In this document: positions 1,534-33,680 of the stretch, in pieces | Position numbering within the stretch: the stretch's first letter is position 1 | Layout: each line of letters starts with the position of its first letter | IMG/VR virus record: IMGVR_UViG_2526164670_000016 | Location: 1 to 33,680 of that record | Direction: 5' to 3' (one strand) | Source of the DNA: a virus | Lineage: Duplodnaviria > Heunggongvirae > Uroviricota > Caudoviricetes | DNA length: 33,680 nucleotides | Made by a program: the position numbers and the translations under genes | The notes under the pieces: generated by a model | Seen by the model: only the letters and a program-made list of their open reading frames with translations | What the model was told of the DNA's origin: nothing | Databases searched by the model: none

Positions 1534-1573
1534 GCCTGTAATCTACTGAAATAAATGGATTTATTTCTTACAA

Positions 1574-1611: not shown

Positions 1612-1626
1612 AAACGGGGTTTTTTA
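1600..1626 (+). terminator. Rho-independent terminator-like hairpin (AACCCCGT / ACGGGGTT, then TTTTTT)
   Basis: 8-bp GC-rich stem, 6-nt loop and a run of six T on the plus strand, about 70 bp downstream of cyaR. Confidence 0.5.
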
Positions 1627-1678
1627 ATACTTTCCCCTCCCCCTTCGCTGTAGATCCTTTTATTAAAACTTCATGCAT

Positions 1679-1980
1679 CATTTTGCAAAACCCAGAGCAC
1701 AGCAAACCAGCCGCCAGCCCGCGCCGCGCAAGGCTTCGACATATCCGCGACCCAAAACTACCAGATGCCACCGAGTCATTTTGATCGTCACGAAAACCAA
1801 AACGATCCTTTTAAAAACATCATGTTATCCAGTCGGTTAGCGACTGGCGACGCGGTGACTTTTGCAAAGTGCTGCAAATCTTTGCGCAGCGTGCAAACGC
1901 CCGCAGGATACAAAAGCCCAGCAGCGGCGCAGGCTGGCGGGGTGCTTTGCGCAAAATTTCTTTTGCAAAATTTTTATGAT
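1679..1980. repeat. Non-coding att-adjacent region with repeated TTTGCAAA / TTTGCGCAAA palindromic motifs
   Basis: TTTTGCAAAA near 1681, 1860 and 1961, TTTGCGCAAAA near 1946, plus related TGCAAA units; the ORFs predicted here overlap each other and lack ribosome-binding sites. Confidence 0.4.
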
Positions 1981-2071
1981 CCAAACTGCGCAGGCGGGTG
2001 CGGTGTAGTGCCGTTTCCGTCTTGGATCCGCTTCCGTCTGCCTGCTGTCGCTTACGCTGTGGGCCGCTGTT

Positions 2072-2108
2072 GAACGAACGAAAGAAAGGCCGCACGGTGG
2101 CGGCCTTT
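2072..2108 (-). terminator. Rho-independent terminator at the end of the minus-strand tail operon (possibly bidirectional)
   Basis: Hairpin AAAGGCCGC-ACGGTG-GCGGCCTTT at 2085-2108; on the minus strand it is followed by TTTCTTTCGTTCG, about 65 bp after the stop of the 2175-3899 gene. Confidence 0.55.
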
Positions 2109-2174
2109 AATATTTGCGCCTGCTGTGGCGCGTTCTGTGGTGTCTGGTGAGATCTGCGGTACTGCCGCTTTTTG

Positions 2175-3899
2175 TCAGGCTATCAGGGGACCGTATTTGC
2201 TTTTCAATGTATCGGTTTTAGTGGCCGCTGCGGTGAACTGCGCAGCCTGCCCGCTGGCCCCTGTATTGGGGTGAGTATGTGACGCGGCGGTCTCTGCCAG
2301 TTCCCTCACCACGTCCAGGGTGTCAGTGAGTAGTGTCAGTACGTTAATTTCTTCGCTTCCCAGTTTTACCACCGGGGCAATCAGCTGTTGCGCCTGGGCC
2401 ACACTTCGGCGGATACCGCTGATTTTCTCAGTCAGTGCGCCGCTGACGTTTGACGTGACATTCCCTTTCACGTCGTCTGTAACATCGCCCGCGACGTCCC
2501 GTTTTGCGTTCCGGCCAACACTGACGGAATTGTCCTTGCTGCAGGTTACTGTCAGGTTGCCGGATGTGCCGATACTGTAATCACCCTCGCTGATATGGAC
2601 CACCGCCCCGGCCAGAAGAGTGGCCGTGCCAAGCACGGTTGTTTTATCCGTTGCCTGGACCGTAGTTTCACGGACAACCACTTTGCGGATCTCTTCGTCG
2701 GTGGTGACTTCGCGCATCATGGAGTTTTCGCGGATTGTCTGGTCCGTCTGGCGTTCCCAGTCTCCGGCAACCGTCACGCGCTGCGATACACCATCGCGCT
2801 GTTGCTGCAACTGCTCGCCGGGTTTAACCGCTGGCAGGTTATGACCCTCCGCCATAATCTGGCGCACGAAGGGCTTATCCTGCCGCCCCTCAGTGAACCC
2901 GATTTCAACCAGCGTGCCAGGGGGCGGAAACTGGAACATTCCCGACTCGCTGCCCGCCATTGGTACAGGTAGCGGAACGGCAGAATAAACCGGCGTATTT
3001 GCGGCTGGCTTGCCGTATTCGTCAAGCAGCTGGAGATCCACGGCATAGCGCGGGCGGAATGGATCGGCAATATTACCCCCTGAAACATCCTCGCTTGGCG
3101 CTTCCACCCTGGCGAATTTTGGAAGATGCAGGCCGCTTGCCAGCTCCGGGAATGCGTTTTCAATCTGCCGCTGAATGGGTGATTTTTGCAATGGCTGGCC
3201 GTTGGCTTTGTTGCGTGGCTGCCAGGTGATTGTCATGTCGTCGTTATTTAGCCGGACCTGGTTTAACCGCTGGCCGTTCACCTCAGCACCCGGGCGCAGG
3301 CTCTGAATCATCGGCACAACCATTGAATTGCCGCCTGCCGATGCCTGGCTAAATTCGTGCGGGATCTCTACTGGTTTACCCGCAAAAAGACTGTGCTCAG
3401 CAGCACCGACGAAGACATCCCCGTCCGGCAGCTGATACCAAAGATAATCCGTCATTGAAAATGCTCGGCCCAGACTGGCAAAAAGCTGGTAGCCCGTGCC
3501 GCTGTGCGTAAAGTGGGGGATCGGTTTATCTGCATAAGCAGCGCCGACCGGCGTTGTGACGGTCAGCCCGCTTTGCTCACTTATCCAGTCAGTAATCTGG
3601 CGCAACGTTGGATGCTGGAAAGAACACGGCCACAATTTATCAAAGATGCCGACCAGCTCACGCACGAACAACCGGCATGTTCCATTATCAGCAGGCTGTG
3701 ACCGTTCGACGTACCCGGTAAACCAGCGCAGGACCAGACCATCATAACCAACATCGATACGCACCATTTTGCCGGTGTAATCTGTCTCTGTCCCCGCCGT
3801 AATAAACCCCCGACCGCACGCGTTCAGCTCCAGCACGATATTGCAGTCAATCAGATGGACCGGATCAGAGGAAAGGTACAGGCGTTTAATTGGTTTCAT
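2175..3899 (-). CDS. Baseplate hub-spike fusion protein (gpD/gp27-like hub fused to gpV/gp5-like spike), 574 aa
   Basis: Last gene of the tail operon next to att; length is roughly P2 D plus V; C-terminal segment (GTLVEIGF..., ...HTHPNTGASGQ) resembles spike proteins from memory. Family assignment not confirmed by search. Confidence 0.55.
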   Translation of the reverse strand: MKPIKRLYLSSDPVHLIDCNIVLELNACGRGFITAGTETDYTGKMVRIDVGYDGLVLRWFTGYVERSQPADNGTCRLFVRELVGIFDKLWPCSFQHPTLRQITDWISEQSGLTVTTPVGAAYADKPIPHFTHSGTGYQLFASLGRAFSMTDYLWYQLPDGDVFVGAAEHSLFAGKPVEIPHEFSQASAGGNSMVVPMIQSLRPGAEVNGQRLNQVRLNNDDMTITWQPRNKANGQPLQKSPIQRQIENAFPELASGLHLPKFARVEAPSEDVSGGNIADPFRPRYAVDLQLLDEYGKPAANTPVYSAVPLPVPMAGSESGMFQFPPPGTLVEIGFTEGRQDKPFVRQIMAEGHNLPAVKPGEQLQQQRDGVSQRVTVAGDWERQTDQTIRENSMMREVTTDEEIRKVVVRETTVQATDKTTVLGTATLLAGAVVHISEGDYSIGTSGNLTVTCSKDNSVSVGRNAKRDVAGDVTDDVKGNVTSNVSGALTEKISGIRRSVAQAQQLIAPVVKLGSEEINVLTLLTDTLDVVRELAETAASHTHPNTGASGQAAQFTAAATKTDTLKSKYGPLIA

Positions 3900-3906
3900 C
3901 GTTTAA

Positions 3907-4449
3907 TTACCCCAGCGCATCGTTGACCGGCTTTAAGACCTTTTCTTCAAACCAGCTCATTTTGTCGGCTGGTTCATCAGCACCTGCAGCCGGACCCGCG
4001 CCCTTTGCCCCTGTTTGCCTGGTGGTGGCCGTCGCGTTGCCTTTTCTGGCCTGTCGTTTTTCCGGGACGCTGCCTTTTTCACGCAGGGTGAAACTTACCT
4101 GCCAGGCAAGGCGATCCTCCTGCGGTACGGCATCAATCTGACCGGTGAACGTGGCTTCACGAAGGTTGATAGCCGTTGCCGTCGCATTGGCAACACGGTA
4201 CTTTTTCAGTGCGCCGCTGGCTTCGGTTGCGGATGCCAGCTGGAAAAGCCGCTGTAAAACGGCTTCATCGTCGAATGTCACCAGACCCGACACGCGCAGC
4301 TCTTTGGCCTTGATACCCTGTTCAGCATTGGCCGTGCTCGATGTCTGGCCCGACTGGTCCTTCTCCTGAAACTGCATGGAAGGTGAAACCAGCATGTTCT
4401 GCATGGCGATCCCTTCACCATCAAGCGCGAGTAATGCGGTCTGGCTCAT
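3907..4449 (-). CDS. Tail/baseplate-associated protein, function unassigned, 180 aa
   Basis: ORF in the tail operon between Tfa-like and hub-spike genes; GC content matches the surrounding structural genes; no family recognised. Confidence 0.4.
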   Translation of the reverse strand: MSQTALLALDGEGIAMQNMLVSPSMQFQEKDQSGQTSSTANAEQGIKAKELRVSGLVTFDDEAVLQRLFQLASATEASGALKKYRVANATATAINLREATFTGQIDAVPQEDRLAWQVSFTLREKGSVPEKRQARKGNATATTRQTGAKGAGPAAGADEPADKMSWFEEKVLKPVNDALG

Positions 4450-5143
4450 GTAGCATCCTCCCTAAGTCAGATAACGAATCCCCGATAAACATCATCGCGG
4501 CGGTATGCACTGCCGTTGTTTGCGGGATGCATTTCAGCAATTCAGCGGCAGCAACGGCATAACTCCCGCTGTAACTGAATGAAAAAATATTCGCACTGGC
4601 GGCTTTCAGGTCGTCCAGTCCCTGGCTGAGTGAGGACAGCAAACCGGCCCGTTCCTGAATAAATCCCGTCACCTGGTTTTTTAGATCTGTTGTGGTGGTA
4701 CTGACTGCGGCGGCCAGCTGCGCGGCGGCAACACGCTGGGCATTCAGCGCCAGCCGGTTGGTTGAGACTGATAACGGCGCACTGGCTGGCAATACATCGG
4801 CTTTAACCGGCAACTGCATTTTTACCGTGCTGAGTTCTGCGGCGGCTGCCGCCATGCGGCTTACCTGCGTAAAAGCGGGGGCAGGAAATACGGTGGACAG
4901 TTTATTCAGCCCCTGCATAAATGCGTCGTGGGTATTCTCCGCTACCATCATGACGATGACATCGCCGCTACCGCCACCGGATAACAGCTTTTTAGCAAGA
5001 TATTCCATCGCATTGGCCGGACTAAGATAAGCGCCTGAATCCGTGGACTGACCCAGCCCATACACCCACGGATGGGCCGGAATGATTGAACAGGATAATG
5101 CCGACATATCATCGGCAATCCTTATAATTGAATCACGCCACAT
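4421..5143 (-). CDS. Tail-module protein, function unassigned (about 240 aa from the ATG at 5143; track ORF extends to a TTG at 5191)
   Basis: Long ORF in the tail operon; ATG at 5143 has GGAG about 10 nt upstream and overlaps the Tfa stop by 11 nt; no family recognised. Confidence 0.35.
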   Translation of the reverse strand: MWRDSIIRIADDMSALSCSIIPAHPWVYGLGQSTDSGAYLSPANAMEYLAKKLLSGGGSGDVIVMMVAENTHDAFMQGLNKLSTVFPAPAFTQVSRMAAAAAELSTVKMQLPVKADVLPASAPLSVSTNRLALNAQRVAAAQLAAAVSTTTTDLKNQVTGFIQERAGLLSSLSQGLDDLKAASANIFSFSYSGSYAVAAAELLKCIPQTTAVHTAAMMFIGDSLSDLGRMLHEPDRITRA

Positions 5144-5570
5144 CGGCAGGTTGCTCCGGCCAGACAATATCTGTCGCTGAGTCGGTATCAATGCGCATCA
5201 GCGATACCCTGTATTCACGCCAGGCAGTAAAAAGCGCTTTTTCTGCGTCCGTCGCTTTACCCAGATCAACGGCATCCTGCAAAGGTGCCAGGATATTGCT
5301 GGCCGCAGCCATCAGGGCAGATTTTTGCGTCTCAGCCCTTACGATTGATTCTTCTTCAGAAAGCGGCAGGGGGTCAGAAAGGACCGGCTGACCATATTCA
5401 TTTGGGATGATGATACGCCCTGAACTCTTATCAATCAGATACTGATACCAGCGCTCAGAAATCAACAAGGCGTCAGCAGGCCAGCCCAGTTCCGATTTTT
5501 CATAATCTGGCTTCAACGAAAGGAAGAAAAATCCATTCATGGAAGCACTGTAATAATATTGCTCATCCAT
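5133..5570 (-). CDS. Tail fibre assembly protein (Tfa / P2 gpG-like chaperone), 145 aa
   Basis: Small ORF directly downstream of the tail fibre gene (4-bp gap); sequence resembles Tfa-family proteins; position is conserved. Confidence 0.7.
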   Translation of the reverse strand: MDEQYYYSASMNGFFFLSLKPDYEKSELGWPADALLISERWYQYLIDKSSGRIIIPNEYGQPVLSDPLPLSEEESIVRAETQKSALMAAASNILAPLQDAVDLGKATDAEKALFTAWREYRVSLMRIDTDSATDIVWPEQPADVA

Positions 5571-5573
5571 TTT

Positions 5574-7496
5574 TTAATATCCCGTTGCCAGCCAGAACAA
5601 AGGAAAGCCCTGGTTTGCGTTAAGCCTTGCCGTCGTATTGGAATATTGCGACACCGAACATTCGAGCGTCCCGGCCACATTCGAGGTAAAAGGCGTGACC
5701 TGAATATTCCGGCACGCATTCGGGAATGCGATCGGGAACGTAATATTTTGATAACCGGACGTCTGGTTCGTGTAACCCCACTGACGGATCCTTCCTGTTG
5801 TTCCGTCGCGCTCCCAGCCGTTTTGCCCCAGGCTGGCCGTATTTTTCAGGTTATAGCGTGCGTCGCTCTCGGCTTTTGTATACGACCCAATCGACCCCGC
5901 CGAAATGGTGATGTTTGCTGTACCGTTAAATGCCACGCCGTTGATGGTGCGGGCGGTTTGCAATTGTGACGCTGAAACCGCATTACCATTTGACGCAAGA
6001 GCGCCAATCTCTGCCGGGGTGGGCTTGTTCGCCACATCATAGGCTTTTGTCCATGCAGACCAGGTGCCACCATAAAGCGTTCGGGCATAACTGCGGGAAT
6101 TGTTGTACACGCGATAAATTTGCGTGATTCCGGCATGCTTAAGGACTTCAAGAGAACCCGCGATCGCCTCCGGATAATTCGTCCCGGTTTGCGCCTGCGC
6201 GTTCGCGGGCTGGTAATAAAGCCCTGGCGTGGTGTAGTTGTTCAGATTTGCTGCATTACCAATCCCTTCGGCCAACCGAAAAATATCAGACGGGAAAAGA
6301 TCGATATTACTCGATAGCGCTCGACCGTTAACCGTTCGTGTTGAGGGCACGCGACTATTAGCATTATCGTTAGCCGCCTTAACTGCTTTCGGCGTCGCGG
6401 CGACGGCTTCCGACTCGCTGTCGGTGGCGCTGCTCAGTTGAATAATCCCTTTCTGCGCTGTCGTAGCGTCCTGCGCGGTGTATTTACCTTTCGCCAGGTC
6501 ATAGGTTGCCTTAACCGCTTTCGGCGTTGCCGCTACTTCTTCAGAATCGCTATCCGTGGCGCTGCTTAATTGCGTGAATCCCTTTGCGGTTGTGGTGGCG
6601 TCCGGGTGGTTGCGTGATTGTTCGTGTTTTTTCAGCGCATCACTGGCCTGTTGCTCGTTCAGCGTACCTTTTGGACGAAGATCGGTAATGACGCCGTTTG
6701 CGTCGATACTCGCAAGGGCAAACACGAAATGTTGCTCACCATTCTGCACGTAATCTTTAAGGTCGGCGGCAACCGTGATTTTGCTTTGTACCGCCCAAAT
6801 GCTCGTAAGCGTTCCCATCCACGCCACATCCAGCCAGACCTTAACCGGCTTTGTTGACACGGTAATATTCTGGTTTGCGGCCAACACTGAACGCAGACCG
6901 GCAAGGTATCCAGTACCTTTAGTGACAAAATACTGGGTGCCTGTTTTCGCGACCAGATAACCCGCATCAAAGAACGACGCCGCACCATACAGATCGATAT
7001 TTTCGCGGCGCTGGCGTTCATCCATTGCCGCCAGACGGGCAGTAAAATCAATCTGCCATGTCTCTGCCGGGGTGGTAATTTCCGTTGCTTCCCTGGCTCC
7101 GCTGTATTCCATCAGCATGGAACGGACCAGAACGTTTCCCTGCTGGCCGTTCGCATTTTTGATTTTACGCTGGGTCGGGGCATGAATAATCATCGCCAGT
7201 GTACCGGTGGCTTTATTTGCCAGACCGATCCAGTTGAAATCAAAATCACCCACATCTGCCCCCATCGTGACGGAATAAACGACAGAGTTTTCATTCACAA
7301 CACCGGATTTACTCACCACCTGACGATAAACAATTTTATCCGCTGCGGGTGCTGTCTCGGTATTATCAATCGGCTTATCAGCATCCAGCCCCGGAATATA
7401 CGCGAAAATAAATTCATCCAGCGCGACGGGCTGATTATTAATAGCCTGCTGGGCTTTCCACTCTGTAAATGCTTTTGTAATAACAGCCTGTGACAT
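5574..7496 (-). CDS. Tail fibre protein (P2 gpH-like), 640 aa
   Basis: Contains the duplicated motif HEQSRNHPDATTTAKGFTQLSSATDS...AATPKAVKA that I recall from P2 gpH; Gly/Asn/Thr-rich C-terminal receptor-binding region. Confidence 0.8.
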   Translation of the reverse strand: MSQAVITKAFTEWKAQQAINNQPVALDEFIFAYIPGLDADKPIDNTETAPAADKIVYRQVVSKSGVVNENSVVYSVTMGADVGDFDFNWIGLANKATGTLAMIIHAPTQRKIKNANGQQGNVLVRSMLMEYSGAREATEITTPAETWQIDFTARLAAMDERQRRENIDLYGAASFFDAGYLVAKTGTQYFVTKGTGYLAGLRSVLAANQNITVSTKPVKVWLDVAWMGTLTSIWAVQSKITVAADLKDYVQNGEQHFVFALASIDANGVITDLRPKGTLNEQQASDALKKHEQSRNHPDATTTAKGFTQLSSATDSDSEEVAATPKAVKATYDLAKGKYTAQDATTAQKGIIQLSSATDSESEAVAATPKAVKAANDNANSRVPSTRTVNGRALSSNIDLFPSDIFRLAEGIGNAANLNNYTTPGLYYQPANAQAQTGTNYPEAIAGSLEVLKHAGITQIYRVYNNSRSYARTLYGGTWSAWTKAYDVANKPTPAEIGALASNGNAVSASQLQTARTINGVAFNGTANITISAGSIGSYTKAESDARYNLKNTASLGQNGWERDGTTGRIRQWGYTNQTSGYQNITFPIAFPNACRNIQVTPFTSNVAGTLECSVSQYSNTTARLNANQGFPLFWLATGY

Positions 7497-7507
7497 AGGT
7501 TTTTCCT

Positions 7508-8107
7508 CTACTTCAAACTTGCGCTGTATGTTATTTGGGGCTGGTTATTCACATCGCCCAGGGTGGCAGGCCAGCAAATATATTCCCCCTGATACCAGCC
7601 AATATTGATATTCAGTGGCAGGGATGTGATCACTTCAAACTGGTAACGGCGGCATGTACGCCCATATTTACGGATGATTTCCAGCAGGAGATCGCCATTT
7701 TCCGCAATCTGGCTGTTTGTCACCCGAACAACAATCACGTCCCAGTCGAGTCCGTCCTGCCGCTCCAGCAATTCAACGTAACCAATCCCCAGTCGCTCAA
7801 AAATGGCAATAAAGCCCGCCACCTCTCCGGCCTGCTGCGCATTGATAAATGCGTAGCTCACCCGTTTGCGGAAGATGTCGAGCGGCTCCCCCTTAAACCG
7901 ATCGATATCGCGTTCCCAGGCAATCAGGTTTAACAGCGGTTCGGGGCAGACCAGCGGGTCAAACTGCTTTAACGGCCAGGAGATCCACCCGTACACCTGC
8001 GACCAGAACTTCACGCAGGCCCGCACCAGCCTGGCGGGGTCGCCTTTGTTCAGCCACGACGGCAATTTCAGACCGGCAAGCAACTTTGAAAACTCAGTCA
8101 TTCTCAA
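7508..8107 (-). CDS. Baseplate/tail protein (P2 gpI-like or Mu gp48/DUF2313-like), 199 aa
   Basis: Position between the J-like baseplate gene and the tail fibre gene; overlaps the J-like stop; size and position fit gpI/gp48-type proteins. Confidence 0.5.
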   Translation of the reverse strand: MRMTEFSKLLAGLKLPSWLNKGDPARLVRACVKFWSQVYGWISWPLKQFDPLVCPEPLLNLIAWERDIDRFKGEPLDIFRKRVSYAFINAQQAGEVAGFIAIFERLGIGYVELLERQDGLDWDVIVVRVTNSQIAENGDLLLEIIRKYGRTCRRYQFEVITSLPLNINIGWYQGEYICWPATLGDVNNQPQITYSASLK

Positions 8108-9278
8108 TCTCCACCGTTAACCCTGACAGGCGCGGGACCGACAGTTCGCTGACAATATCCGTCAGTGAAAAATGCAGTGAATCGACAACCGGAAAAGCTT
8201 TGTGGATCTCGCGGCCCAGATTCGAAAAGGAATAGCGCGAATAGGGCTGCGTCTTCTTAACGTCGTAATTGGCGTTCTCGCGAAACGCGCAACGAATCAG
8301 GTCGGTAATACCGGTTTTTAACGCGCTCAGGTCTTCCGCTTCCATGTTTTCCACGCTTTTGACGTATACCGTTACCGTCAGGGTGTGGCTGGTTTCCGGC
8401 ATGGTATAACACTGCAAATCATCACCGTGTCCGTGGTGGCCCTGGGTATTCACATAGTCGTTAACCGCATCAATAAAGGGTTGTGATATTTCGCCACTGT
8501 CCAGCAACAGGTAAGCATTTGCCGTACCCGGTCCCCGTGGGGCATCGTGCAAAAAGTAAATGCGATCAACGCTCAGGCCCAGCACGCTGGCAATCATGCT
8601 GCGGTAAATAGCGTCAGAGTGATAATTCCCCACCAGATTAAACTGGTTGCGGGTACGGTCGCGCAGCTCGTCGTCGCTTTCCTCGTTGGCTCCCGGCGTA
8701 ATCAGCCATTCGTCCTCATTGACCGCGCTGGCAATCCCGGCCACCGCAACGGGTAAAATCCGGTAATAGCCTGGCGCAAGGTTATAGCCGCTGCCGGTGC
8801 CGGTCGCCGTGACGGTAACCAGCCCGCTTTCAACCCCGGCAGGCAGCGTCACGTCTTCATTCACCGCCAGCACATAAACCACGCCGTTAATGCGCTCGGT
8901 TTGCACCAGTGTTCCGGCAGGCACGACGACCACATCCGCCGCGTTCAGCTTGTAGAACCGCAGCACGCCAGCGGCAGCGCTGGCCGGTTTAGGCACGATA
9001 TGAACCGCCCAGGCCAGCAGGCGCAGCATGGGACCGGTGGCCGTCGCAACAAACATATTGCGCAGGACCACATCGATCATCGCCGCCCGCAGCCATAACA
9101 CCGGCGTGGTGACAATCTTCGAAATCAGCCGCCAGAAAGGCGACATCCTCGACGTGTTTGTAACGAACCCTTCCGCCTGCACGGTGGCTTTAAACGCTGC
9201 CGTAATTTCGGCCTCTGTCGCGGGCATCCCGCTGTCATTCAGTACCTTTTCGAAATCAACGTCGGGTTTCTCAGTCAT
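8094..9278 (-). CDS. Baseplate J-like protein (P2 gpJ / Mu gp47 family), 394 aa
   Basis: Size and position immediately after the small W/gp46-like gene (ATGACTGA start/stop overlap). Confidence 0.65.
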   Translation of the reverse strand: MTEKPDVDFEKVLNDSGMPATEAEITAAFKATVQAEGFVTNTSRMSPFWRLISKIVTTPVLWLRAAMIDVVLRNMFVATATGPMLRLLAWAVHIVPKPASAAAGVLRFYKLNAADVVVVPAGTLVQTERINGVVYVLAVNEDVTLPAGVESGLVTVTATGTGSGYNLAPGYYRILPVAVAGIASAVNEDEWLITPGANEESDDELRDRTRNQFNLVGNYHSDAIYRSMIASVLGLSVDRIYFLHDAPRGPGTANAYLLLDSGEISQPFIDAVNDYVNTQGHHGHGDDLQCYTMPETSHTLTVTVYVKSVENMEAEDLSALKTGITDLIRCAFRENANYDVKKTQPYSRYSFSNLGREIHKAFPVVDSLHFSLTDIVSELSVPRLSGLTVEIEND

Positions 9279-9607
9279 AGTTAACCTCTGTACTGACAGG
9301 GCCGAAATCGTAGGTTTCCGCCGTGATATACAACCTCGAAAGGGTTTCTTCGGTGATCACTATGGTTCCTGGGACCAGACGTTCGTCGCTTTCCACCAGT
9401 AAGGACAGTTGTGTCAGCACGTCACCGCGCATTGTCGGGCTACGTTCACCGATCAGGCGGGTGGTGATACCGCTTTCCAGAATGCTGTGAATAATGTCCT
9501 GGGTGATGCTGTCGCGGTTATCGCAACGGCGCGGCTCGTTGCCCGCTGTCCAGCGTGAAATCGCCGTCAGTGATCAAAAGGTCGATGTATAACGGTTCGG
9601 TACTCAT
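9271..9607 (-). pseudogene. Small baseplate protein gene (gp46/W-like, about 111 aa) interrupted by a 1-nt frameshift
   Basis: ATG at 9607 overlaps the tape-measure stop (ATGA); frame 0 reads MSTEPLYIDLLITDGDFTLDSGQRAAPLR then stops; the +1 frame continues NEPRRCDNRDSITQDIIHSILESGITTRLIGERSP...TEVNYD and ends in a TGA overlapping the J-like ATG. One extra base near the GGGC run (about 9540) explains it. The track shows no ORF of 60 aa or more here. Confidence 0.5.
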
Positions 9608-11718
9608 CCTGCGTTAAGCTCCTGCCATTCAGCCAACTGGGCCGGGGTGATTCCATTGGGGGCGTTGATGTAGGTATCGCCCCACGTTTTACGGTTATCA
9701 ACAGCGGTTTTGCTGTCGCTTTTAACTTGACTCATCAGGCCGCCGCGTGGGATGCCTGCATTAATTCGGTTCCCCGTCAGCACGGACGGGCTGTTCAGCT
9801 TCGATGAACCTGCAGCACTGTCAGGAATGACCGCATTTGCCGGAACGGCAGCCGCTGCCGATGGCGAAACGGTTTTCAGGTCGATGTTGACGCCGGGGAT
9901 CTTGTTTAACTTCTCAACAATCCAGTTATAGGTAGACGCAAAGGTATTTTTGAGGACGTCAAAAAGTTTGCTGAATACCCCGCCGATGGTTTGTGCGAAC
10001 CCTTCAAAGGTGGCAAGCGGGGAAAGACCGGCAAAGAAATCAACCACCACGGCCCAGCCGTCTGTGATGGACTGCCAGACCTGCGCAAACACCTGGCCTA
10101 CCTGTTCAGCGACCGACATCACCCAGGCAAAAGCCGACGTATCCATGATTGCTGCTGCCAGTTCTTCCCAGTGGGTGATGACGTACCAGACCCCCACGGC
10201 CAGAAGTGCCAGCCCGGCAACGATCAGGGTGATCGGACTCATCAGGAGTTGCATTGCCGCCCCGGCAAACATGGTCGCCGCACCGTAAACCCGCATGGCA
10301 ATGGCTCCGGCCTTTAACGCGATATTCCATGCAGCAAGCGCGATGCGGCAGACGCCAGTCCACAGCGCCAGTAATTTTGACTGGATCCACAATGCAGCCA
10401 GACCGATGCGCGTCGTCAGCAGGGACAGACGCAACAGGTTTAGCGTCCATAACAGGAGTTTCCATGCCCCGCCCAGCACTTTTGCAATTGCGGCCAGCCC
10501 TGTCATGGTGAAGCCAAAGCCCCCCATCACGATATTGACCGCCGCCCCGGCCAGCCCGAAGGACAACACGCCCAGGGTGATGTAACCCAGCCAGCGGGCA
10601 ATATTCGGGAACATATCCAGCCAGCGGGCAAATTTTGTCCCCACGTCGGCAATACGGTTCATCAGCGGCGACAGGATAGGGATCAGCGTGTTACCAATCG
10701 CCACACGAATGGCAAAGAATGTCGCTTTGATACGTTCCCACGGCTCGGCCATTCGTTCGGCCATTTCCTGGGCGCGTTTCATCCCGTCATTTCGGCCCAG
10801 TTCGGTAATGCTGCGATTTAATTTATCCTGCTGGCCGTACAGCTTTTTGATAACGTCAGCGCCGCCACCGAATGCGGCGTCCAGCGCCTGTTGTGCCTTG
10901 ACGTTCCCTTCAATGCTCTGCCCGTATTTGCTCTGGAGTTTTTGCAGAATGTCACCCATCGGCAGCATTTTGCCGGTGGCATCGACAAAGCTCATACCCA
11001 GCTTTTCAGCGGCAGCCGGGGCGCTGCGTAAAAACTGCTCGTAGATCCCGCTGGCCTCAGTACCCAGCGTGCGCGAAAGTGTCCCCAGGACGACGAACTG
11101 TTCATCCAGGCTGACGCCAAAGTCAGCACCGGCGCTTTTCGTCCCCTCGATAAGCTCCTGCATGGTCTGCATTTTCACGCCAAAGTTTTGCACCATGTAC
11201 GCCGTTTTCCCTGCCAGCTCTTCGGCAAAACGCACATGGCCCAGACTGGACAGCTCCGCGTTGAAGCGTGACGCCATCGCGCCGATGTATTCGCCTGCCT
11301 CTTCGCCGCTGGCCTTGACGCCTGCGGCCAGGGTATTGGCCGCGATGGTAACGCGGGGCAGGTCCAGATCGGACAGGCCCGCCATTGCGCCTTTCATCGC
11401 GTAGCTTGACCGGACCACATCAACGGCCCCTTTGCCGTAGCGCATACTGAATCGCATGGCTTCGCCGGACAGACGCTTCAGCGCGTCCTCTGCCACGCCT
11501 TTGGAACCCACTTCTGCAAGCGCGGCGTTCATCTCATACGCCGGACCCACCACGCCCGCGATGGACTGCGCCACGCCCCAGACAGCAGCCGCACCGATCC
11601 CGATTTTTGTAAAAGACGCCTGCGATTTTTCGGCAAAGCCGGACAGCGAAGACTGGGCCGTCTTTAATGGCCGCGTCAGCTTATCGATCAGGCTCAGGGT
11701 AAAATCCAGGTGGCTCAT
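9604..11718 (-). CDS. Tail tape measure protein, 704 aa
   Basis: Largest ORF in the tail module; Ala/Gly-rich with a long hydrophobic central segment; preceded by a frameshifting chaperone gene pair. Confidence 0.8.
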   Translation of the reverse strand: MSHLDFTLSLIDKLTRPLKTAQSSLSGFAEKSQASFTKIGIGAAAVWGVAQSIAGVVGPAYEMNAALAEVGSKGVAEDALKRLSGEAMRFSMRYGKGAVDVVRSSYAMKGAMAGLSDLDLPRVTIAANTLAAGVKASGEEAGEYIGAMASRFNAELSSLGHVRFAEELAGKTAYMVQNFGVKMQTMQELIEGTKSAGADFGVSLDEQFVVLGTLSRTLGTEASGIYEQFLRSAPAAAEKLGMSFVDATGKMLPMGDILQKLQSKYGQSIEGNVKAQQALDAAFGGGADVIKKLYGQQDKLNRSITELGRNDGMKRAQEMAERMAEPWERIKATFFAIRVAIGNTLIPILSPLMNRIADVGTKFARWLDMFPNIARWLGYITLGVLSFGLAGAAVNIVMGGFGFTMTGLAAIAKVLGGAWKLLLWTLNLLRLSLLTTRIGLAALWIQSKLLALWTGVCRIALAAWNIALKAGAIAMRVYGAATMFAGAAMQLLMSPITLIVAGLALLAVGVWYVITHWEELAAAIMDTSAFAWVMSVAEQVGQVFAQVWQSITDGWAVVVDFFAGLSPLATFEGFAQTIGGVFSKLFDVLKNTFASTYNWIVEKLNKIPGVNIDLKTVSPSAAAAVPANAVIPDSAAGSSKLNSPSVLTGNRINAGIPRGGLMSQVKSDSKTAVDNRKTWGDTYINAPNGITPAQLAEWQELNAG

Positions 11719-11719
11719 A

Positions 11720-11917
11720 TCAGTTTCCGTTAAATGCGATTGCTATCCCTTCCGCCGTCTTACTGGCGCGGGTCTGGGCGAAATATTCATCCAGCCACAG
11801 GGCGCGGGCGATGCTTTCTTCGTCGTCGTCTTCGTGCGGGAGGTAATAGCGGCGCAGGGCAAGGTATTGCTCAAGCACATTCTTGCGAATGGCCGCCACC
11901 CGCGCCGTCAGTTTTTT
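11720..11917 (-). other. E'-like extension frame reached by programmed -1 ribosomal frameshift at slippery heptamer A_AAA_AAC (minus strand, 11911-11917)
   Basis: The -1 frame is open for 64 codons (KKLTARVAAIRKNVLEQYLALRRYYLPHEDDDEESIARALWLDEYFAQTRASKTAEGIAIAFNGN) from the heptamer, placed just before the stop of the 89-aa ORF, to a TGA one nucleotide before the tape-measure ATG. Confidence 0.55.
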
Positions 11918-12177
11918 ACTTCGATCTCAAGTTTGGGGGAGTAAATCTCGTTCACCTTCTCGACGATCTGCATTTCGCAACCCGGATAATCTTCCATCAG
12001 CTTGTTGAGCGCCTCTTTACACTCGGCATCAACAATGCGGCCCAGATAAGTCACCATCGGGGCAACCTTATTGGTCATGGTCATTTCGTTAAGCAGGTTG
12101 TTAAACGCGGTTTTATTCGGCTCAAAGCTCAGATTTACGCCCGCCACGGTCATGGCGATTTTTTTCGATTTGCTCAT
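11908..12177 (-). CDS. Tail assembly chaperone (P2 gpE-like / lambda G-like), 89 aa
   Basis: Small ORF immediately upstream of the tape measure gene; ends ...EIEVKN with the slippery heptamer inside its last codons. Confidence 0.55.
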   Translation of the reverse strand: MSKSKKIAMTVAGVNLSFEPNKTAFNNLLNEMTMTNKVAPMVTYLGRIVDAECKEALNKLMEDYPGCEMQIVEKVNEIYSPKLEIEVKN

Positions 12178-12470
12178 TGTGCTAATTCCTTACGTTGTCG
12201 AATTATGCCCACCAGGGCGTTATGTCGGGCGGCGCAGTCGGTATACATCAGCCGGTAGGCTTTCAGCGCCGCGTCAAAGTCATTTCCGGTCGGTCCGGCC
12301 AGACGTGGCAGCGTGACCGGGCAAAGTGTCAGCTGGTTTTCCTGATAATTTTCGTTCGGCTTGATCTGCACTTTCGTTGAACAACCGGACGTAATCATCA
12401 GAAGCGCAAACGTTGCTAAAAACCGGCTTAATGGTTTCCGTGCGGATAACCCGTTCCGTGTGAATTTCAT
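12174..12470 (-). CDS. o-spanin (Rz1-like outer-membrane lipoprotein), up to 98 aa
   Basis: N-terminal signal-like segment with lipobox-like LMITSGC; overlaps the 3' half of the i-spanin gene in another frame; start uncertain. Confidence 0.5.
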   Translation of the reverse strand: MKFTRNGLSARKPLSRFLATFALLMITSGCSTKVQIKPNENYQENQLTLCPVTLPRLAGPTGNDFDAALKAYRLMYTDCAARHNALVGIIRQRKELAQ

Positions 12471-12663
12471 TGGCCCTCAGCTCCGCGAGTTTTGCTTCCA
12501 GCGCTTCACCAGACTGCTGTGTCACCTCAACAACAATCTGGCGCGTTTGTTCTGCCGCTTCACTGGCAGCGAGTTTCAGCTTTGCGTCGTGCCAGTCATG
12601 CGCCTGCCAGCCCGCTGACATCGCAGCGACGAGAATCAGCAAAAGACCCAGCAAATTGCGCAT
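12280..12663 (-). CDS. i-spanin (Rz-like inner-membrane protein), 127 aa
   Basis: N-terminal transmembrane helix (LLGLLLILVAAMSAGW) followed by a charged coiled-coil-like periplasmic domain; directly downstream of the endolysin gene. Confidence 0.55.
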   Translation of the reverse strand: MRNLLGLLLILVAAMSAGWQAHDWHDAKLKLAASEAAEQTRQIVVEVTQQSGEALEAKLAELRANEIHTERVIRTETIKPVFSNVCASDDYVRLFNESADQAERKLSGKPADTLPGHAATSGRTDRK

Positions 12664-13001
12664 CAGCGAACCCCGTTATGCTCAAGACTGAAATGGTTGC
12701 CGTCCGGCTTACTGAAACGTCCACCCCACGATCCGCCGATAGATTCCCAGTATTCGCCCAGGGGGCGGTATGCGGCGCTGTCGGCCTGGTATTCGCCGTT
12801 AATAAACAGGTTAAAATCCACCGCGAGGCGCTGGGTATGCAGGCTGTTAGCAATGCCACTCCCTTTTTTTGCGTTAAGCGCGGCCTGTTCCGGCGTGCGG
12901 TACGCTTCGCCAAACGTCAGGCGATAGCCCTTTTCTTCGGCAAAATGAATCAGGCTGGCGATCATCACCGTGAAAAGTTGCTGTTTTTCACTCAGTTTCA
13001 T
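12663..13001 (-). CDS. Endolysin, L-alanyl-D-glutamate peptidase-like (peptidase M15 family), 112 aa
   Basis: Small protein with Zn-binding-like motifs (SLHTQRLAVD, DGNHFS) typical of M15 phage endolysins; sits between holin and spanins. Confidence 0.65.
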   Translation of the reverse strand: MKLSEKQQLFTVMIASLIHFAEEKGYRLTFGEAYRTPEQAALNAKKGSGIANSLHTQRLAVDFNLFINGEYQADSAAYRPLGEYWESIGGSWGGRFSKPDGNHFSLEHNGVR

Positions 13002-13299
13002 TGCGCTTGCTCTCCCATCGCTTGATATACATATCCAGGCAGCGCTTTAACCCTGCCTCAATAAACGCGCTTCCCAGAATGCCCAGGGCGCAGGCCAGCC
13101 CAATGACGACCAGTTCCGGCATATCGGGGAATTTCAGCAGAGGGATTGCGGCCAGCGGTGCGACCGCAGATCCCAGAATCATCCGCCCGACCAGCAGGCG
13201 GGTTGTGATTCGCTCATTGCCGACCATCAGTTGCCCCAGGCCAATCACGGCCCCGATAAGCAACAGCTTTTCAAGCAGTGACGTTTCTCCGTTCATCAT
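12988..13299 (-). CDS. Holin, 103 aa
   Basis: Three predicted hydrophobic helices and a charged C-terminus (KRWESKRNETE); immediately upstream of the endolysin, overlapping by 14 nt. Confidence 0.6.
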   Translation of the reverse strand: MMNGETSLLEKLLLIGAVIGLGQLMVGNERITTRLLVGRMILGSAVAPLAAIPLLKFPDMPELVVIGLACALGILGSAFIEAGLKRCLDMYIKRWESKRNETE

Positions 13300-13303
13300 C
13301 GTG

Positions 13304-13759
13304 TCAGCCTTTCAAATCGCGAGTGTCGCGGGCTGACAGGTACGGCACGCCGTCAATCGCGACAAAGTCCGGGCTTGTCACCATGAATTTAATTTTCTTC
13401 GTGGTTTTGCTGGCCTCGTTGGGGTTGATGTTGACGATGTCGGACAGCGTCGGAACGCAGCCAAACACCTCGATTTTTTCTTCGTCGTCCCCGGCGTTGG
13501 CGTAGAACAAAAAGTCCTTTGCCGGAATGGATCGCCAGGAACCTGCGGCACGGGCCACGGCGGTAAACTTTTTAAAGTTCTGGGAGTCGACTTCGACTTC
13601 CACATCCGCCGAAACTGACCCTTTCGTGTGGCCGTTCGGGATGCCACGCGACTGCGCAACGGCGCTGTTATCCGTAATGGTGACGGTGGCGTTTTCGACG
13701 TGAATCATGATGCTGTCGTAGTTCACATCGAACGATCCACCGCTGATACGTTCAGTCAT
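13304..13759 (-). CDS. Putative tail tube protein, 151 aa
   Basis: Position directly downstream of the putative sheath gene; size fits tube proteins; no strong motif recognised. Confidence 0.45.
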   Translation of the reverse strand: MTERISGGSFDVNYDSIMIHVENATVTITDNSAVAQSRGIPNGHTKGSVSADVEVEVDSQNFKKFTAVARAAGSWRSIPAKDFLFYANAGDDEEKIEVFGCVPTLSDIVNINPNEASKTTKKIKFMVTSPDFVAIDGVPYLSARDTRDLKG

Positions 13760-13762
13760 TGA

Positions 13763-14905
13763 TTAGCTCTCCAGTGAGGTGTCCAGTTCGATGCTGACGC
13801 TGATTTCTTTCGCGCTCTCATACGGTCGAACCACAAGGTAAATCTGCACCGCTTCGCTACTGGTCCAGGTGATGGTGATGTCGCCGTCCTTTGGTGGCTT
13901 CACTTCGCCCGGAAATTCGACGCCATTGATCTGGGTTGAAATCGCCATTTCGCGCAGCGGCTTGCCGAAATAGGTTTCATGCGCGGCGATGCTGCCCGGT
14001 GTGCTGTTCAGTGAACGATCGGCAATTTTTGGGATTGCACGCAGACGGACGCGGCGGGAGGCTTTATCAACCACGCGCACGTTTTCAATCACCTGATAAT
14101 CACCGCCTTCAACGTCCAGGGTGCGACCGTCAGCCCAGTAGATGCCGTCATAATCGTGATACCACATCGGCACGCTGTAGCGGTTCGCCTGCAAGGACTG
14201 CAACACGGCCAGATCAATTTCGGCCCCCGTCCCGTCGACCGGCAGGCCGTCGCTCCCCAGCGCGGTGACTGCGCCGGTTGCGACGCGGGCGGGGCTGTCT
14301 GCCACCGTCACCGAACGGTTACACAGGCGACCGACCAGGACGCCGGGTTCGTTACCCCACAGACGCGGGACCAGTTGCACCCCAGGCGATGCAATACCGT
14401 CCTGGAGTGCTGCCAGACGCGTCACATAGTCGCTCCACGCTTCGTCCTTTTCCGGCCCACCCACAGCAAGGGCAAACCAGATAAAACGCCCAAAACTGGC
14501 CTGTAAGGTGACGCGCATTTCCGTTGCACGGTTGATGGTGGCCTTGTCGGTGGTATCAAAAGCCAGAAGGATCCCTTCCACGGATGCCACGCTCTGGGCC
14601 TGTTTGACCGCGCTCATCCAGTCTTCGTCTGGTTTATAGCCCTCGGCTTCCGTGTCCGGTTGTTCCAGTACGTGCACATAAGCAAACCAGTTCTGACCGG
14701 CGTTATTGGCCGCAGCGGCCACAATGCTTTTTAACAGGCTGTCTTTGTCGCCCAGGGCTTTATCCAGATCGCTGTCGGTATTCAGCGACTGGGTTTTCCC
14801 GATGTTAGTGTCGCCGTAACCCACAAAGAGGATGACGCGCTCGACGTCGTTCGTTGTGCCGTTGAAGCGGTTTTTCTGACTGACGTTGACTGTAGGCCAG
14901 GTCAT
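13763..14905 (-). CDS. Putative contractile tail sheath protein, 380 aa
   Basis: Position after the R/S-like tail completion genes and before the tube gene; size fits small sheath proteins; family not verified. Confidence 0.45.
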   Translation of the reverse strand: MTWPTVNVSQKNRFNGTTNDVERVILFVGYGDTNIGKTQSLNTDSDLDKALGDKDSLLKSIVAAAANNAGQNWFAYVHVLEQPDTEAEGYKPDEDWMSAVKQAQSVASVEGILLAFDTTDKATINRATEMRVTLQASFGRFIWFALAVGGPEKDEAWSDYVTRLAALQDGIASPGVQLVPRLWGNEPGVLVGRLCNRSVTVADSPARVATGAVTALGSDGLPVDGTGAEIDLAVLQSLQANRYSVPMWYHDYDGIYWADGRTLDVEGGDYQVIENVRVVDKASRRVRLRAIPKIADRSLNSTPGSIAAHETYFGKPLREMAISTQINGVEFPGEVKPPKDGDITITWTSSEAVQIYLVVRPYESAKEISVSIELDTSLES

Positions 14906-16076: not shown

Positions 16077-16606
16077 ATCAAATGCACCCCAACGCGTGGT
16101 TGTCGCAGCATGTTTCGCATCACGTTGGCCGCCTCGGCCAGCAGGCTGGCGCGGGTGTCCTGGCTTTCCTGCCCCGGATGCGATTCACGCCGCCCGATGG
16201 TGGCGAACTCCCCCAGTAAATCGGCCTTTGCGCGGGCGTAGACCGCTTTTTTGTACTGGGCTGTTAACTGGGTTTCGTCGCCCATCTTTGCACCCGGTAC
16301 ATCTGCGGCCCGCTCGCAGGCTTTCGCGTTCCAGTACGTCACCACGTCGGCCAGCGCGTCGTTTACCTCCGCAATAGCGGCCAGCAGGGCCACGCCTGCG
16401 GTTTCTGGCGGCAGATCAGCGGGCAGCGTGCGCACCTTCTGAAACTCGGCCAGATCGAGATCGGGCCAGAACGTCACGCCGTTGGTGATCGCTGTTGGCG
16501 TCACCGTCACTGGCTTGCCGCTGATACTGAAACTTGGGCCACTCATTGGCGTACCTCGGTTTTGCAATAGAAACGGGCTAACGGGTTCCACGGCCAACAA
16601 CCGCAT
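16073..16606 (-). CDS. L: Head completion/stabilisation protein (P2 gpL-like), up to 177 aa
   Basis: Follows the small terminase gene as in the P2 head operon; true start may be the internal ATG (MSGPSF...). Confidence 0.6.
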   Translation of the reverse strand: MRLLAVEPVSPFLLQNRGTPMSGPSFSISGKPVTVTPTAITNGVTFWPDLDLAEFQKVRTLPADLPPETAGVALLAAIAEVNDALADVVTYWNAKACERAADVPGAKMGDETQLTAQYKKAVYARAKADLLGEFATIGRRESHPGQESQDTRASLLAEAANVMRNMLRQPRVGVHLI

Positions 16607-16648
16607 GGTTGATGCCTCCCCCGCGCCCGTCCCGGCTAGCGGGAGTCT

Positions 16649-32436: not shown

Positions 32437-33221
32437 ATGACAATTAAGAAACTCGATGATGGTCGTTATGAAGTGGATATCAGACCTGCAGGGCGCAACG
32501 GAAAGCGCATCCGCAGGAAATTTGACAAGAAAAGTGAGGCTGTAGCTTTTGAGAAACACACTCAATACAACCATCACGATAAAGAATGGCTAGCTAAACC
32601 GACAGATAAGCGGCATCTGTCTGAATTAACAAAAGTCTGGTGGGATCTGAAAGGCAAGCATGAAGAACACGGAAAATCCAATTTGGGTAAGATTGAAATC
32701 TTTACCCGGATCACTGATGACCCTTGCGCGTTCCAGATAACCAAAGCGCTTATTAGCCAGTACAGCATGACTCGCAGAGGGCAAGGCATAAAACCGGCCA
32801 GTATTAACCGCGACCTTACCTGCCTGAGTGGTATGTTTACTGCGCTAATTGATGCGGAACTGTTTTTTGGCGAACACCCTTTCAGAGGGATGAAAAAGCT
32901 CAAGGAGCAGAAACCAGAAACAGGCTATCTGACGCAGGAAGAAATAACATTGTTACTTGCCAATCTTGACGGGGACAACAAGAAAATCGCGATCCTCTGT
33001 TTAAGTACCGGCGCTCGATGGGGTGAAGCCGCGAAACTGAAAGCTGAGAACGTAATACAGAATCGGGTGACGTTCGTTAAAACAAAGACGAACAAACCGC
33101 GCACAGTCCCTATCTCTGAGGAAGTTGCTGTAATGATTGCGGGTAAAGGTTATCTGTTCCCTGATGCCTCATATCCGAAGTTCAGGCGAACAATGAAAGA
33201 TGTAAAACCAGATCTACCGAG
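32437..33221 (+). pseudogene. int: Tyrosine integrase (P2 Int-like), 3'-truncated by IS insertion; about 261 of an expected ~337 aa retained
   Basis: N-terminal 260 aa strongly resemble P2 Int from memory up to ...KDVKPDLPS; after about 33221 the frame reads unrelated sequence (LYIDLCNCLILICS...) into the IS; the C-terminal catalytic region is absent. Confidence 0.8.
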
Positions 33222-33680
33222 CCTGTACATAGATTTGTGTAATTGCCTGATTTTGATATGTTCAATCCAGCATCAAATGAAGGTTAATTTATGGACGAAA
33301 AACAGTTACAGGCTCTGGCTAACGAACTGGCCAAAAACCTCAAAACCCCTGAAGACCTCAGTCAGTTTGATCGGCTGCTGAAAAAACTCAGCGTTGAAGC
33401 CGCTCTCAATGCTGAGATGACACACCATCTTGGGTATGAGAAAAATCAGTCCAGACCAGGAGCTAACTCCCGCAACGGTTATTCCACAAAGACCGTTATC
33501 ACAGGCGACGGTCCACTGGAACTGCGTACTCCGCGCGATCGTGACGGTACCTTCGAACCGCAACTGGTAAAGAAAAATCAGACCCGTATTACCGGGATGG
33601 ATAACCAGATCCTGTCGTTGTATGCCAAAGGGATGACCACCCGTGAGATAGCTACTGCGTTCAAAGAACTGTATGACGCA
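33221..33680 (+). mobile_element. IS256-family insertion sequence (IS1414/IS285-like), left end and 5' part; continues beyond the window
   Basis: Transposase ORF begins at 33291, about 70 bp inside the inferred left end; the boundary is placed where the integrase homology stops (plus or minus 10 bp). Confidence 0.7.
33291..33680 (+). CDS. IS256-family transposase, N-terminal 130 aa (partial, runs off the window)
   Basis: MDEKQLQALANELAKNLKTPEDLSQFDRLLKKL...NSRNGYSTKTVITGDGPLELRTPRDRDGTFEPQLVKKNQTRITGMDNQILSLYAKGMTTREI is the typical IS256/Mutator-like transposase N-terminus; no stop before the window end. Confidence 0.8.
   Translation, partial: MDEKQLQALANELAKNLKTPEDLSQFDRLLKKLSVEAALNAEMTHHLGYEKNQSRPGANSRNGYSTKTVITGDGPLELRTPRDRDGTFEPQLVKKNQTRITGMDNQILSLYAKGMTTREIATAFKELYDA

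What the first reader, a model, noticed from the sequence alone, without database searches (positions are those of the whole stretch)
9271..9607. Frameshifted gp46/W-like baseplate gene between tape measure and J-like genes
The slot between the tape-measure stop and the J-like start is bracketed by ATGA and ATGACTGA overlaps typical of coupled genes, but the reading frame breaks after 29 codons and resumes in the +1 frame. A single extra base near 9540 explains this. If real, the prophage cannot build a normal baseplate; otherwise it is a sequencing error at a G/C run.
Basis: seen in the sequence. Interest (0 to 1): 0.5.

Follow-up and report, generated by a model that had tools for sequence, protein, structure and literature searches.

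The report
One-base frameshift in prophage baseplate gene
A small tail-baseplate gene of a P2/HP1-type prophage in E. coli EC4100B is broken by one extra G that no related copy carries, which is either an ordinary recent inactivating mutation or a base-calling error, not a new biological mechanism.

Summary
On the minus strand, between the tape-measure gene (9604-11718) and the Baseplate_J gene (8094-9278), a 337-base slot opens with ATG at 9607, stops after 29 codons (TAA 9520-9518) and continues in the +1 frame to TGA 9273-9271. One extra G (GGC to GGGC; plus-strand CCC 9542-9544) causes this. Removing it restores a 111-aa protein identical to the E. coli homologue.

The gene belongs to Pfam DUF2590 (HP1 orf28 type). 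A confident structure model matches gp25/gpW/Mu gp46-type sheath initiators, so "W/gp46-like" holds at fold level but not at sequence-family level.

Every other copy examined is single-frame. These include 19 complete E. coli genomes, Salmonella phages SI7/SW3/SW5, 13 IMG/VR contigs, over 2000 protein clusters, and a prophage 99.99% identical over 13.9 kb. The broken allele occurs only in the source record (E. coli EC4100B, AERU01000033.1). Programmed recoding is therefore excluded.

Real mutation versus sequencing error cannot be settled without reads. I lean slightly to a real mutation. It is the only indel in 30.7 kb compared with near-identical prophages, and IS1414 already cuts this prophage's integrase. 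Low interest.

The parts
9604..11718 (-). Tail tape-measure gene (704 aa). Its TGA stop overlaps the start of the broken gene (ATGA).
   Evidence: ORF list. Pfam PhageMin_Tail E 9.4e-18. Full length and 98.7% identical to the E. coli 2011C-4251 homologue.
9271..9607 (-). DUF2590 (gp25/W/gp46-like sheath-initiator) gene, 337 bases instead of 336, split over two reading frames.
9518..9607 (-). N-terminal piece in frame 0: 29 codons (the first 22 are native, then 7 out-of-frame residues QRAAPLR) plus TAA.
9542..9544 (-). GGG run holding the one extra G (GGC in all homologues). This is the frameshift site, between codons 22 and 23.
   Evidence: DNA alignment. Indel list against two references. The single gap against the 99.986%-identical L018.
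9271..9541 (-). C-terminal part (residues 23-111 plus TGA) in the +1 frame. It holds nearly all the conserved residues of the family. GenBank annotates only the last 53 codons (9271-9432) as EFW73382.1.
8094..9278 (-). Baseplate J/gp47-family gene (394 aa). Its ATG lies 5 bases before the end of the broken gene (ATGACTGA), and it has its own GAGG Shine-Dalgarno 6 bases upstream.
7508..8101 (-). P2 gpI-like baseplate protein (197 aa), the next gene of the same module.
   Evidence: Pfam Tail_P2_I E 9.7e-5. Full length against the homologue.
32437..33219 (+). Prophage integrase gene, cut after codon 261 of 335. This is a second, independent lesion of the same prophage.
   Evidence: 261/261 identical residues, then divergence. 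Alignments to six near-identical prophages all stop at 33219.
33220..33680 (+). Left end of an IS1414 (IS256-family) element inserted in the integrase gene. The window and the source contig both end inside it.
   Evidence: The coordinate arithmetic comes (window 33680 = contig base 276,939).

Best explanation
The slot holds the DUF2590 gene of an SI7/HP1-type P2-family (Peduoviridae) prophage. The prophage is integrated between yegQ and yegR in E. coli EC4100B.

The protein is a divergent gp25/gpW/gp46-type 'sheath initiator'. This is the small baseplate-wedge protein that works with the J protein and nucleates polymerisation of the contractile sheath.

In this record one extra G (GGC to GGGC after codon 22) shifts the frame. 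Translation then ends after 29 codons, and the 89 residues that carry almost all conserved positions are not made. The gene is normally a single ORF. The break is private to this strain's record and is not a programmed recoding site.

My preferred reading is that the insertion is a genuine, very recent mutation in a prophage that is already decaying, because IS1414 has destroyed its integrase. If so, the prophage cannot excise and cannot assemble a functional contractile tail.

Shown here: the lesion, its uniqueness, the family and fold assignment, and the IS insertion. Inferred: that the base is really in the DNA, and that loss of this protein abolishes tail assembly (by analogy with T4 gp25, P2 gpW and TssE).
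For: **The lesion**
- Frame break and single extra G.

**Homologues are single-frame**
- 19/19 complete E. coli genomes and 4 phage records.
- 218 and then 2005 protein clusters. The 120 listed from each search are 92-126 aa, almost all 108-115 aa.
- 4 closely related prophages encode the 111-aa gene.
- 13 IMG/VR contigs carry the wild-type allele and none carries the frameshift allele.

**Only one record has the break**
- The exact window sequence is E. coli EC4100B, AERU01000033.1.

**Family and fold**
- PF10761 at E 3.5e-42.
- AlphaFold model with pLDDT 85.8.
- The phage ACA1 record calls its homologue 'sheath initiator' and cites HHpred hits to P2 gpW.
- The gene order TMP-DUF2590-J-I-fibre is the same in HP1.

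**In favour of a real mutation**
- This is the only indel in 30.7 kb compared with prophages 99.95-99.99% identical.
- All 153 homopolymer runs of 5 or more bases in those stretches agree in length. The record therefore does not show the signature of homopolymer miscalling.
- An IS1414 insertion cuts the integrase after codon 261 of 335. That cannot be a base-calling error. It shows this copy is already immobilised, so selection on it is relaxed.
- Another strain carries a copy with a large internal deletion (L023), so decay of this prophage type does occur.
Against: - No reads were available. The allele is seen in a single 2011 draft assembly and nowhere else.
- A prophage with only one other difference in 13.9 kb is intact. 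A real mutation would therefore have to be extremely recent.
- The change is a one-base length change in a G run within G+C-rich sequence, which is the commonest kind of consensus error in pyrosequencing-era drafts.
- All 27 other late genes are full length, so there is no independent sign of decay within the structural module.
- That DUF2590 is essential is inferred from other sheath initiators. It has not been tested for this family.
Confidence: 0.55

Rival explanations
1. Sequencing or assembly error. The DNA of EC4100B has GGC like every relative, and the extra G is a consensus miscall at a short G run in a 2011 draft. The gene and the tail module are then intact, although the prophage is still locked in place by the IS1414 insertion in its integrase.
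For: - The allele is unique to one draft record.
- It is absent from viral and metagenome collections, while the wild-type allele is found there.
- A prophage 99.986% identical over 13.9 kb differs by this base and one substitution only.
- All other late genes are intact.
- The change is a homopolymer length change in a G+C-rich context.
- From my own knowledge, not checked here: drafts of that period from this sequencing centre commonly included 454 data.
Against: - No other indel appears in 30.7 kb compared with near-identical prophages.
- None of the 153 runs of 5 or more bases, where such errors concentrate, is discordant. A 2-to-3 miscall would be the least likely kind.
- The record is version 2 of the assembly and still keeps the extra base.
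- The prophage has an undoubted second lesion, which makes a real pseudogene unsurprising.
Confidence: 0.42
2. Programmed or tolerated recoding. Ribosomes shift +1 near GGG-C, or RNA polymerase slips, so that a full-length functional protein is still made from the two-frame gene.
For: Nothing positive. The +1 frame is open from codon 12 to the end, so a shift anywhere in an 18-codon window would give a near-native protein. The same module does use a genuine programmed -1 shift in its tail-chaperone gene.
Against: - No homologue has the two-frame layout. A programmed site would be conserved.
- Read directly from the sequence, there is no known +1 motif. There is no slippery codon followed by a stop or hungry codon at the P/A site, and no upstream Shine-Dalgarno stimulator as in prfB.
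- A run of three G is far too short for transcriptional slippage.
- The frame-0 stop lies 7 codons downstream, after ordinary codons.
Confidence: 0.02

Closest known systems
HP1 orf28 / Salmonella phage SI7 gp17 (Pfam DUF2590, PF10761)
   Same: Same family (E 3.5e-42). It is 97% identical to SI7 gp17 and about 64% identical to HP1 orf28. The length after repair is the same 111 aa. The position between the tape-measure and Baseplate_J genes is the same.
   Different: The window copy has one extra G and is split into a 29-codon stub and an out-of-frame remainder.
P2 gpW / Mu gp46 / T4 gp25 / TssE (GPW_gp25, PF04965; sheath initiators)
   Different: No detectable sequence-family membership. There is no PF04965 hit at E 0.1 or better, and hhalign against P2 gpW gives probability 0.2%. 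In this module the gene follows the tape-measure gene rather than a V-type spike gene.
P2 E/E' tail-chaperone programmed -1 frameshift
   Same: It is a two-frame gene in a P2-family tail module. The equivalent site is present in this same window (A_AAA_AAC at 11911-11917).
   Different: That site has a canonical slippery heptamer, and the two-ORF layout is seen in all relatives examined. The break at 9542-9544 has neither property.
Cryptic or defective prophages of E. coli (pseudogenised late genes, IS insertions)
   Same: IS1414 in the integrase plus a single-base frameshift in a structural gene is the usual pattern of early prophage decay.
   Different: Decay here is minimal. All 27 other late genes are intact, and the copy is 99.95-99.99% identical to intact prophages.

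Membership tests
Pfam DUF2590 (PF10761) | Match to the family HMM above the gathering score (27 bits) | tested here: met
   The sequence with the extra G removed scores 143.1 bits, E 3.5e-42, covering profile positions 1-98 of 100. The 53-aa remnant called in the source record also carries PF10761.
Pfam DUF2590 (PF10761) | Single uninterrupted ORF of about 105-115 aa | tested here: not met
   The window copy stops after 29 codons and resumes in the +1 frame. The listed homologues are 92-126 aa, almost all 108-115 aa, in one frame. The copy is therefore a disrupted member, not a variant architecture.
Pfam DUF2590 (PF10761) | Position between the tape-measure and Baseplate_J genes in HP1-type tail modules | tested here: met
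   The order is the same in E. coli prophages, SI7, HP1 and Pseudoalteromonas phage ACA1.
gp25/gpW/gp46 sheath initiators (Pfam GPW_gp25, PF04965) | Sequence match to GPW_gp25 | tested here: not met
   No PF04965 hit at E 0.1 or better, whereas P2 gpW hits it at 2.3e-14. hhalign of a 30-sequence DUF2590 profile against P2 gpW gives probability 0.2% (shallow test, single target sequence). A GenBank note for phage ACA1 reports an HHpred match to P2 gpW; I did not reproduce it.
gp25/gpW/gp46 sheath initiators (Pfam GPW_gp25, PF04965) | gp25-like fold | tested here: met
gp25/gpW/gp46 sheath initiators (Pfam GPW_gp25, PF04965) | Encoded next to, and upstream of, the J/gp6-type wedge gene | tested here: met
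   The window has DUF2590 then Baseplate_J with an 8-base overlap. P2 has W then J.
gp25/gpW/gp46 sheath initiators (Pfam GPW_gp25, PF04965) | Sits in the baseplate, extends the sheath beta-sheet 'handshake', and is required for sheath polymerisation | not testable with these tools
   This needs virion proteomics, cryo-EM or a knockout. It is inferred from established work on T4 gp25, TssE and R-pyocin PA0617.
Programmed ribosomal frameshift | Two-frame layout conserved among homologues | tested here: not met
   The two-frame layout is absent from 19 E. coli genomes, 4 phage records, 13 IMG/VR contigs, 4 close prophages and the protein clusters searched.
Programmed ribosomal frameshift | Recognisable shift site (slippery or hungry codon with a stimulator) | tested here: not met
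   Read directly from the sequence AGC GGG CAA CGA GCC GCG CCG UUG CGA UAA: there is no known +1 motif. The genuine -1 site A_AAA_AAC in the chaperone gene provides the contrast.
Homopolymer sequencing artefact | Other length discrepancies at homopolymers in the same record | tested here: not met
   There are no other indels over 1-13900 and 16429-33219 against prophages 99.95-99.99% identical. Those stretches contain 153 runs of 5 or more bases and 44 of 6 or more.
Homopolymer sequencing artefact | Reads disagree with the consensus at the site | not testable with these tools
   No read data are accessible. Only one assembly of the strain exists in the collections searched.

The most novel reading that the evidence does not exclude
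The GGGC allele is real and is still decoded into some full-length sheath initiator, by spontaneous +1 slippage of tRNA-Gly at GGG-C or an equivalent bypass. That would give a leaky, low-output tail gene in a locked prophage. A milder version is that the host has selectively disarmed the prophage (integrase plus baseplate) while keeping its candidate defence cargo, PDC-S20 and PDC-M45B.
Probability: 0.02. Interest if true: 0.35.

Novelty: already known. Interest (0 to 1): 0.08.

Why it matters
It matters little beyond annotation. If the extra G is real, this EC4100B prophage is doubly defective: it cannot excise, and it probably cannot build a tail. It should then be scored as cryptic in prophage or induction studies, and the 53-aa 'hypothetical protein' EFW73382.1 should be annotated as a pseudogene fragment. 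If the extra G is an error, the record needs a one-base correction.

One by-product is more widely useful. DUF2590, still labelled 'unknown function' in Pfam, has the gp25-like fold and the position of the sheath initiator in HP1-type tail modules. That supports renaming the family.

Tried and rejected
- **Exact-pattern scans for the frameshift allele:** Genome contigs, metagenome contigs and viral contigs all gave zero hits. The genome-contig scan is uninformative, because the wild-type allele also gave zero there; that collection holds one genome per species. The viral-contig scan has a positive control, with 13 wild-type hits.
- **Look-up of the 53-aa remnant protein:** apart from the source contig, this returned a Logan contig (L006). 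That contig is only 95.8% identical and simply begins at that ATG, so it says nothing about the frameshift.
- **Extending into the host chromosome of EC4100B to measure its frameshift rate:** this failed. The yegQ and phage proteins are shared by hundreds of assemblies, and the source contig was not among those returned. Those loci did supply the near-identical prophages used for the indel comparison.
- **The second protein search with a profile:** it listed only close enterobacterial relatives. A third search with the ACA1 homologue was needed to diversify the alignment.
- **Literature searches:** searches for the WGS accession, DUF2590 and phage SI7 gave almost nothing. One paper gave the submitters of the EC4100B project.
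- **Rejected explanations:** programmed +1 frameshift, phase variation at a three-base run, and functional re-initiation. The first in-frame start after the break is Met59, it has no Shine-Dalgarno, and the resulting fragment would lack the N-terminal strands and helix 1.

Full report
**1. What is in the sequence.** The genes around the finding lie on the minus strand.
- A 704-aa ORF (9604-11718) is a tape-measure protein (Pfam PhageMin_Tail, E 9.4e-18).
- A 394-aa ORF (8094-9278) is a Baseplate_J protein (E 1.3e-28).
- The next ORF (7508-8101) is P2 gpI-like.
- Between the first two lies a 337-base slot. From ATG 9607 it reads MSTEPLYIDLLITDGDFTLDSGQRAAPLR and stops at TAA 9520-9518.
- The +1 frame then carries ...GNEPRRCDNRDSITQDIIHSILESG...STEVNYD to TGA 9273-9271.

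**2. The cause.**
- The region matches 19 complete E. coli genomes at 98.3% identity. It matches Salmonella phages SI7, SW3 and SW5 at 95.4%. Each match spans 700 bases against 701 in the window.
- The alignment shows one extra base. AGC-GGC in the homologues is AGC-GGG-C here (plus-strand CCC 9542-9544).
- The homologues encode one 111-aa protein. Deleting one G from the window gives a protein identical to the E. coli one.

**3. Where the window comes from.**
- The 53-aa ORF that a gene caller makes from the broken gene exists on one long contig only, with which the window is 100% identical. That contig is GCA_000193995.2, AERU01000033.1.
- The protein is EFW73382.1, 'hypothetical protein ECoL_04208 [Escherichia coli EC4100B]'.
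- This is a 2011 whole-genome shotgun project (reference list of PMC3368898).
- Window base 1 is the start of yegQ. Window base 33680 is the last base of the contig (arithmetic).
- The element is a roughly 31.6-kb prophage of the SI7 type (Peduoviridae, Irrigatiovirus) with an HP1-type tail module. It sits between yegQ and yegR, which are adjacent in strains without it.

**4. What the gene is.**
- The repaired protein is a clear member of Pfam DUF2590 (143 bits, cut-off 27) and of PHROG 1237, which has no assigned function.
- Homologues occur in HP1 (orf28), HP2, K139, Kappa, F108, phiO18P, ESSI-2 and others, always after the tape-measure gene and before the J gene.
- It does not hit Pfam GPW_gp25, and a shallow profile comparison with P2 gpW is negative.
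- After adding Pseudoalteromonas, Shewanella and Thalassotalea relatives, the model reached pLDDT 85.8.
- It also returned the sheath initiators of Pa193, XM1, phiCD508, diffocin, Pam3, R2 pyocin, PVC and Afp, plus TssE, at 6.0-7.7. Mu gp46 scored 5.4 with 25% identity over 88 residues.
- The depositors of phage ACA1 call their homologue 'sheath initiator protein' and cite HHpred matches to P2 gpW.
Family membership by sequence is DUF2590.

**5. Is the two-frame layout natural?** No.
- Every homologous protein cluster listed is a single ORF, almost all 108-115 aa.
- The frameshift falls inside a conserved stretch. G22, E24 and C28 are invariant among the 30 close relatives in A2.
- Four closely related prophages at the same chromosomal site have the 111-aa gene.
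- In IMG/VR the wild-type 32-mer occurs in 13 contigs and the frameshift 33-mer in none.
- There is no known +1 shift motif, and a run of three G cannot support transcriptional slippage (read).
- The same module does contain a genuine recoding site. The tail-chaperone gene ends ...GTA AAA AAC TGA, with the heptamer A_AAA_AAC at 11911-11917. Its -1 frame runs into the DUF6890 ORF, as in P2 E/E'. That site has exactly the properties the 9542-9544 site lacks.

**6. Real mutation or error?** This cannot be decided without reads, but several facts bear on it.

Against a systematic error:
- Window 1-13900 differs from one prophage (L018, GCA_036948865.1) by one substitution and this one gap.
- Window 16429-33219 differs from six others by 3-9 substitutions and no gap.
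- Those 30.7 kb contain 153 homopolymer runs of 5 or more bases and 44 of 6 or more, all concordant.
- All 27 other late genes are full length. The only other unpaired indel in the 16-kb late region is intergenic.

In favour of decay:
- The alignments to all relatives stop at 33219, inside the integrase gene.
- The first 261 of 335 integrase residues are identical. After that the sequence is the end of an IS1414 (IS256-family) element, in which the contig ends.
- The missing C-terminal part includes the stretch ...MVYAHF... visible in the intact relative. From general knowledge of tyrosine recombinases, that is where the catalytic tyrosine is expected. I did not map catalytic residues.
- This prophage copy is therefore already immobilised, which relaxes selection on its tail genes.
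- Another strain's copy (L023) has lost everything between the portal gene and the gpI-like gene.

In favour of an error:
- The allele is seen only in one draft.
- The change is a homopolymer length change in G+C-rich sequence.
- The closest intact copy is almost identical, so a real event would have to be very recent.

I put a real mutation at about 0.55, an error at about 0.42, and recoding at about 0.02.

**7. Consequence if real.**
- The stub keeps only 22 native residues. The helices and the C-terminal sheet of the gp25-like domain are lost.
- By analogy with T4 gp25, P2 gpW, R-pyocin PA0617 and TssE (established knowledge, not tested here), no sheath-competent baseplate would form.
- The J gene has its own GAGG six bases upstream of its ATG. 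Its translation need not depend on coupling, so polarity may be mild. This is inference.

**8. Verdict.** This is an ordinary single-base frameshift in a known prophage gene family, private to one draft record. It is already covered by known kinds of event (a prophage pseudogene or a consensus error) and deserves a low score. The only point of wider use is the fold-level assignment of DUF2590 as the sheath initiator of HP1-type tails.

Noticed in passing
window 32437-33680 (+): The prophage integrase gene is cut after codon 261 of 335 by an IS1414 (IS256-family) element at 33219/33220. The window and the source contig both end inside the IS. Near-identical prophages in other strains have the intact 335-aa integrase followed by yegR.
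   Followed up: yes
window 11720-12177 (-), heptamer at 11911-11917: The tail assembly chaperone gene (89 aa) ends with the slippery heptamer A_AAA_AAC just before its stop. The -1 frame continues into the DUF6890 ORF. This looks like a P2 E/E'-type programmed -1 frameshift. Annotations list the two ORFs separately, with differing starts for the second (45, 52 or 59 aa).
   Followed up: partly
window 22944-26309: Between the ogr/Delta-like gene and the gpA-like replication gene lies a cargo block that the E. coli 2011C-4251 and SI7 relatives lack. It holds a KAP-family NTPase (451 aa) matching PADLOC candidate system PDC-S20 (E 6.7e-70), a 236-aa ORF, a DUF488 protein matching PDC-M45B (E 1.4e-54), and a 203-aa DuOB-like protein. 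This is probably a P2-type anti-phage defence hotspot.
   Followed up: partly
L023 (Logan ERR6140632), equivalent to window 8311 joined to 21225: Another strain's copy of this prophage has a deletion of about 12.9 kb that joins the portal gene region to the gpI-like tail gene. It removes the terminase, head, sheath, tube, lysis, tape-measure, DUF2590 and J genes. This is an independent example of decay of the same prophage type.
   Followed up: no
window 5136-6600 (-): The C-terminal part of the tail-fibre gene and the tail-fibre assembly gene are only 54-68% identical to those of the 95-98%-identical relatives 2011C-4251 and SI7. The nearly identical prophages L017-L020 share them. This is a swapped host-range cassette, as is usual in P2-like phages.
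   Followed up: no
window 1615-1625; L004 28378-29444: The related prophage of E. coli 2011C-4251 carries an AbiH-family abortive-infection gene between its last tail gene and yegQ. That segment of about 1.07 kb is absent from the window's prophage.
   Followed up: no
L006 (Logan SRR19716477 contig, 1013 bases): A second contig 'encoding' the same 53-aa protein is merely a contig that starts exactly at the internal ATG of an otherwise 95.8%-identical gene. Exact-protein look-ups of short remnants can therefore return contig-edge artefacts, which should not be counted as independent frameshift alleles.
   Followed up: yes
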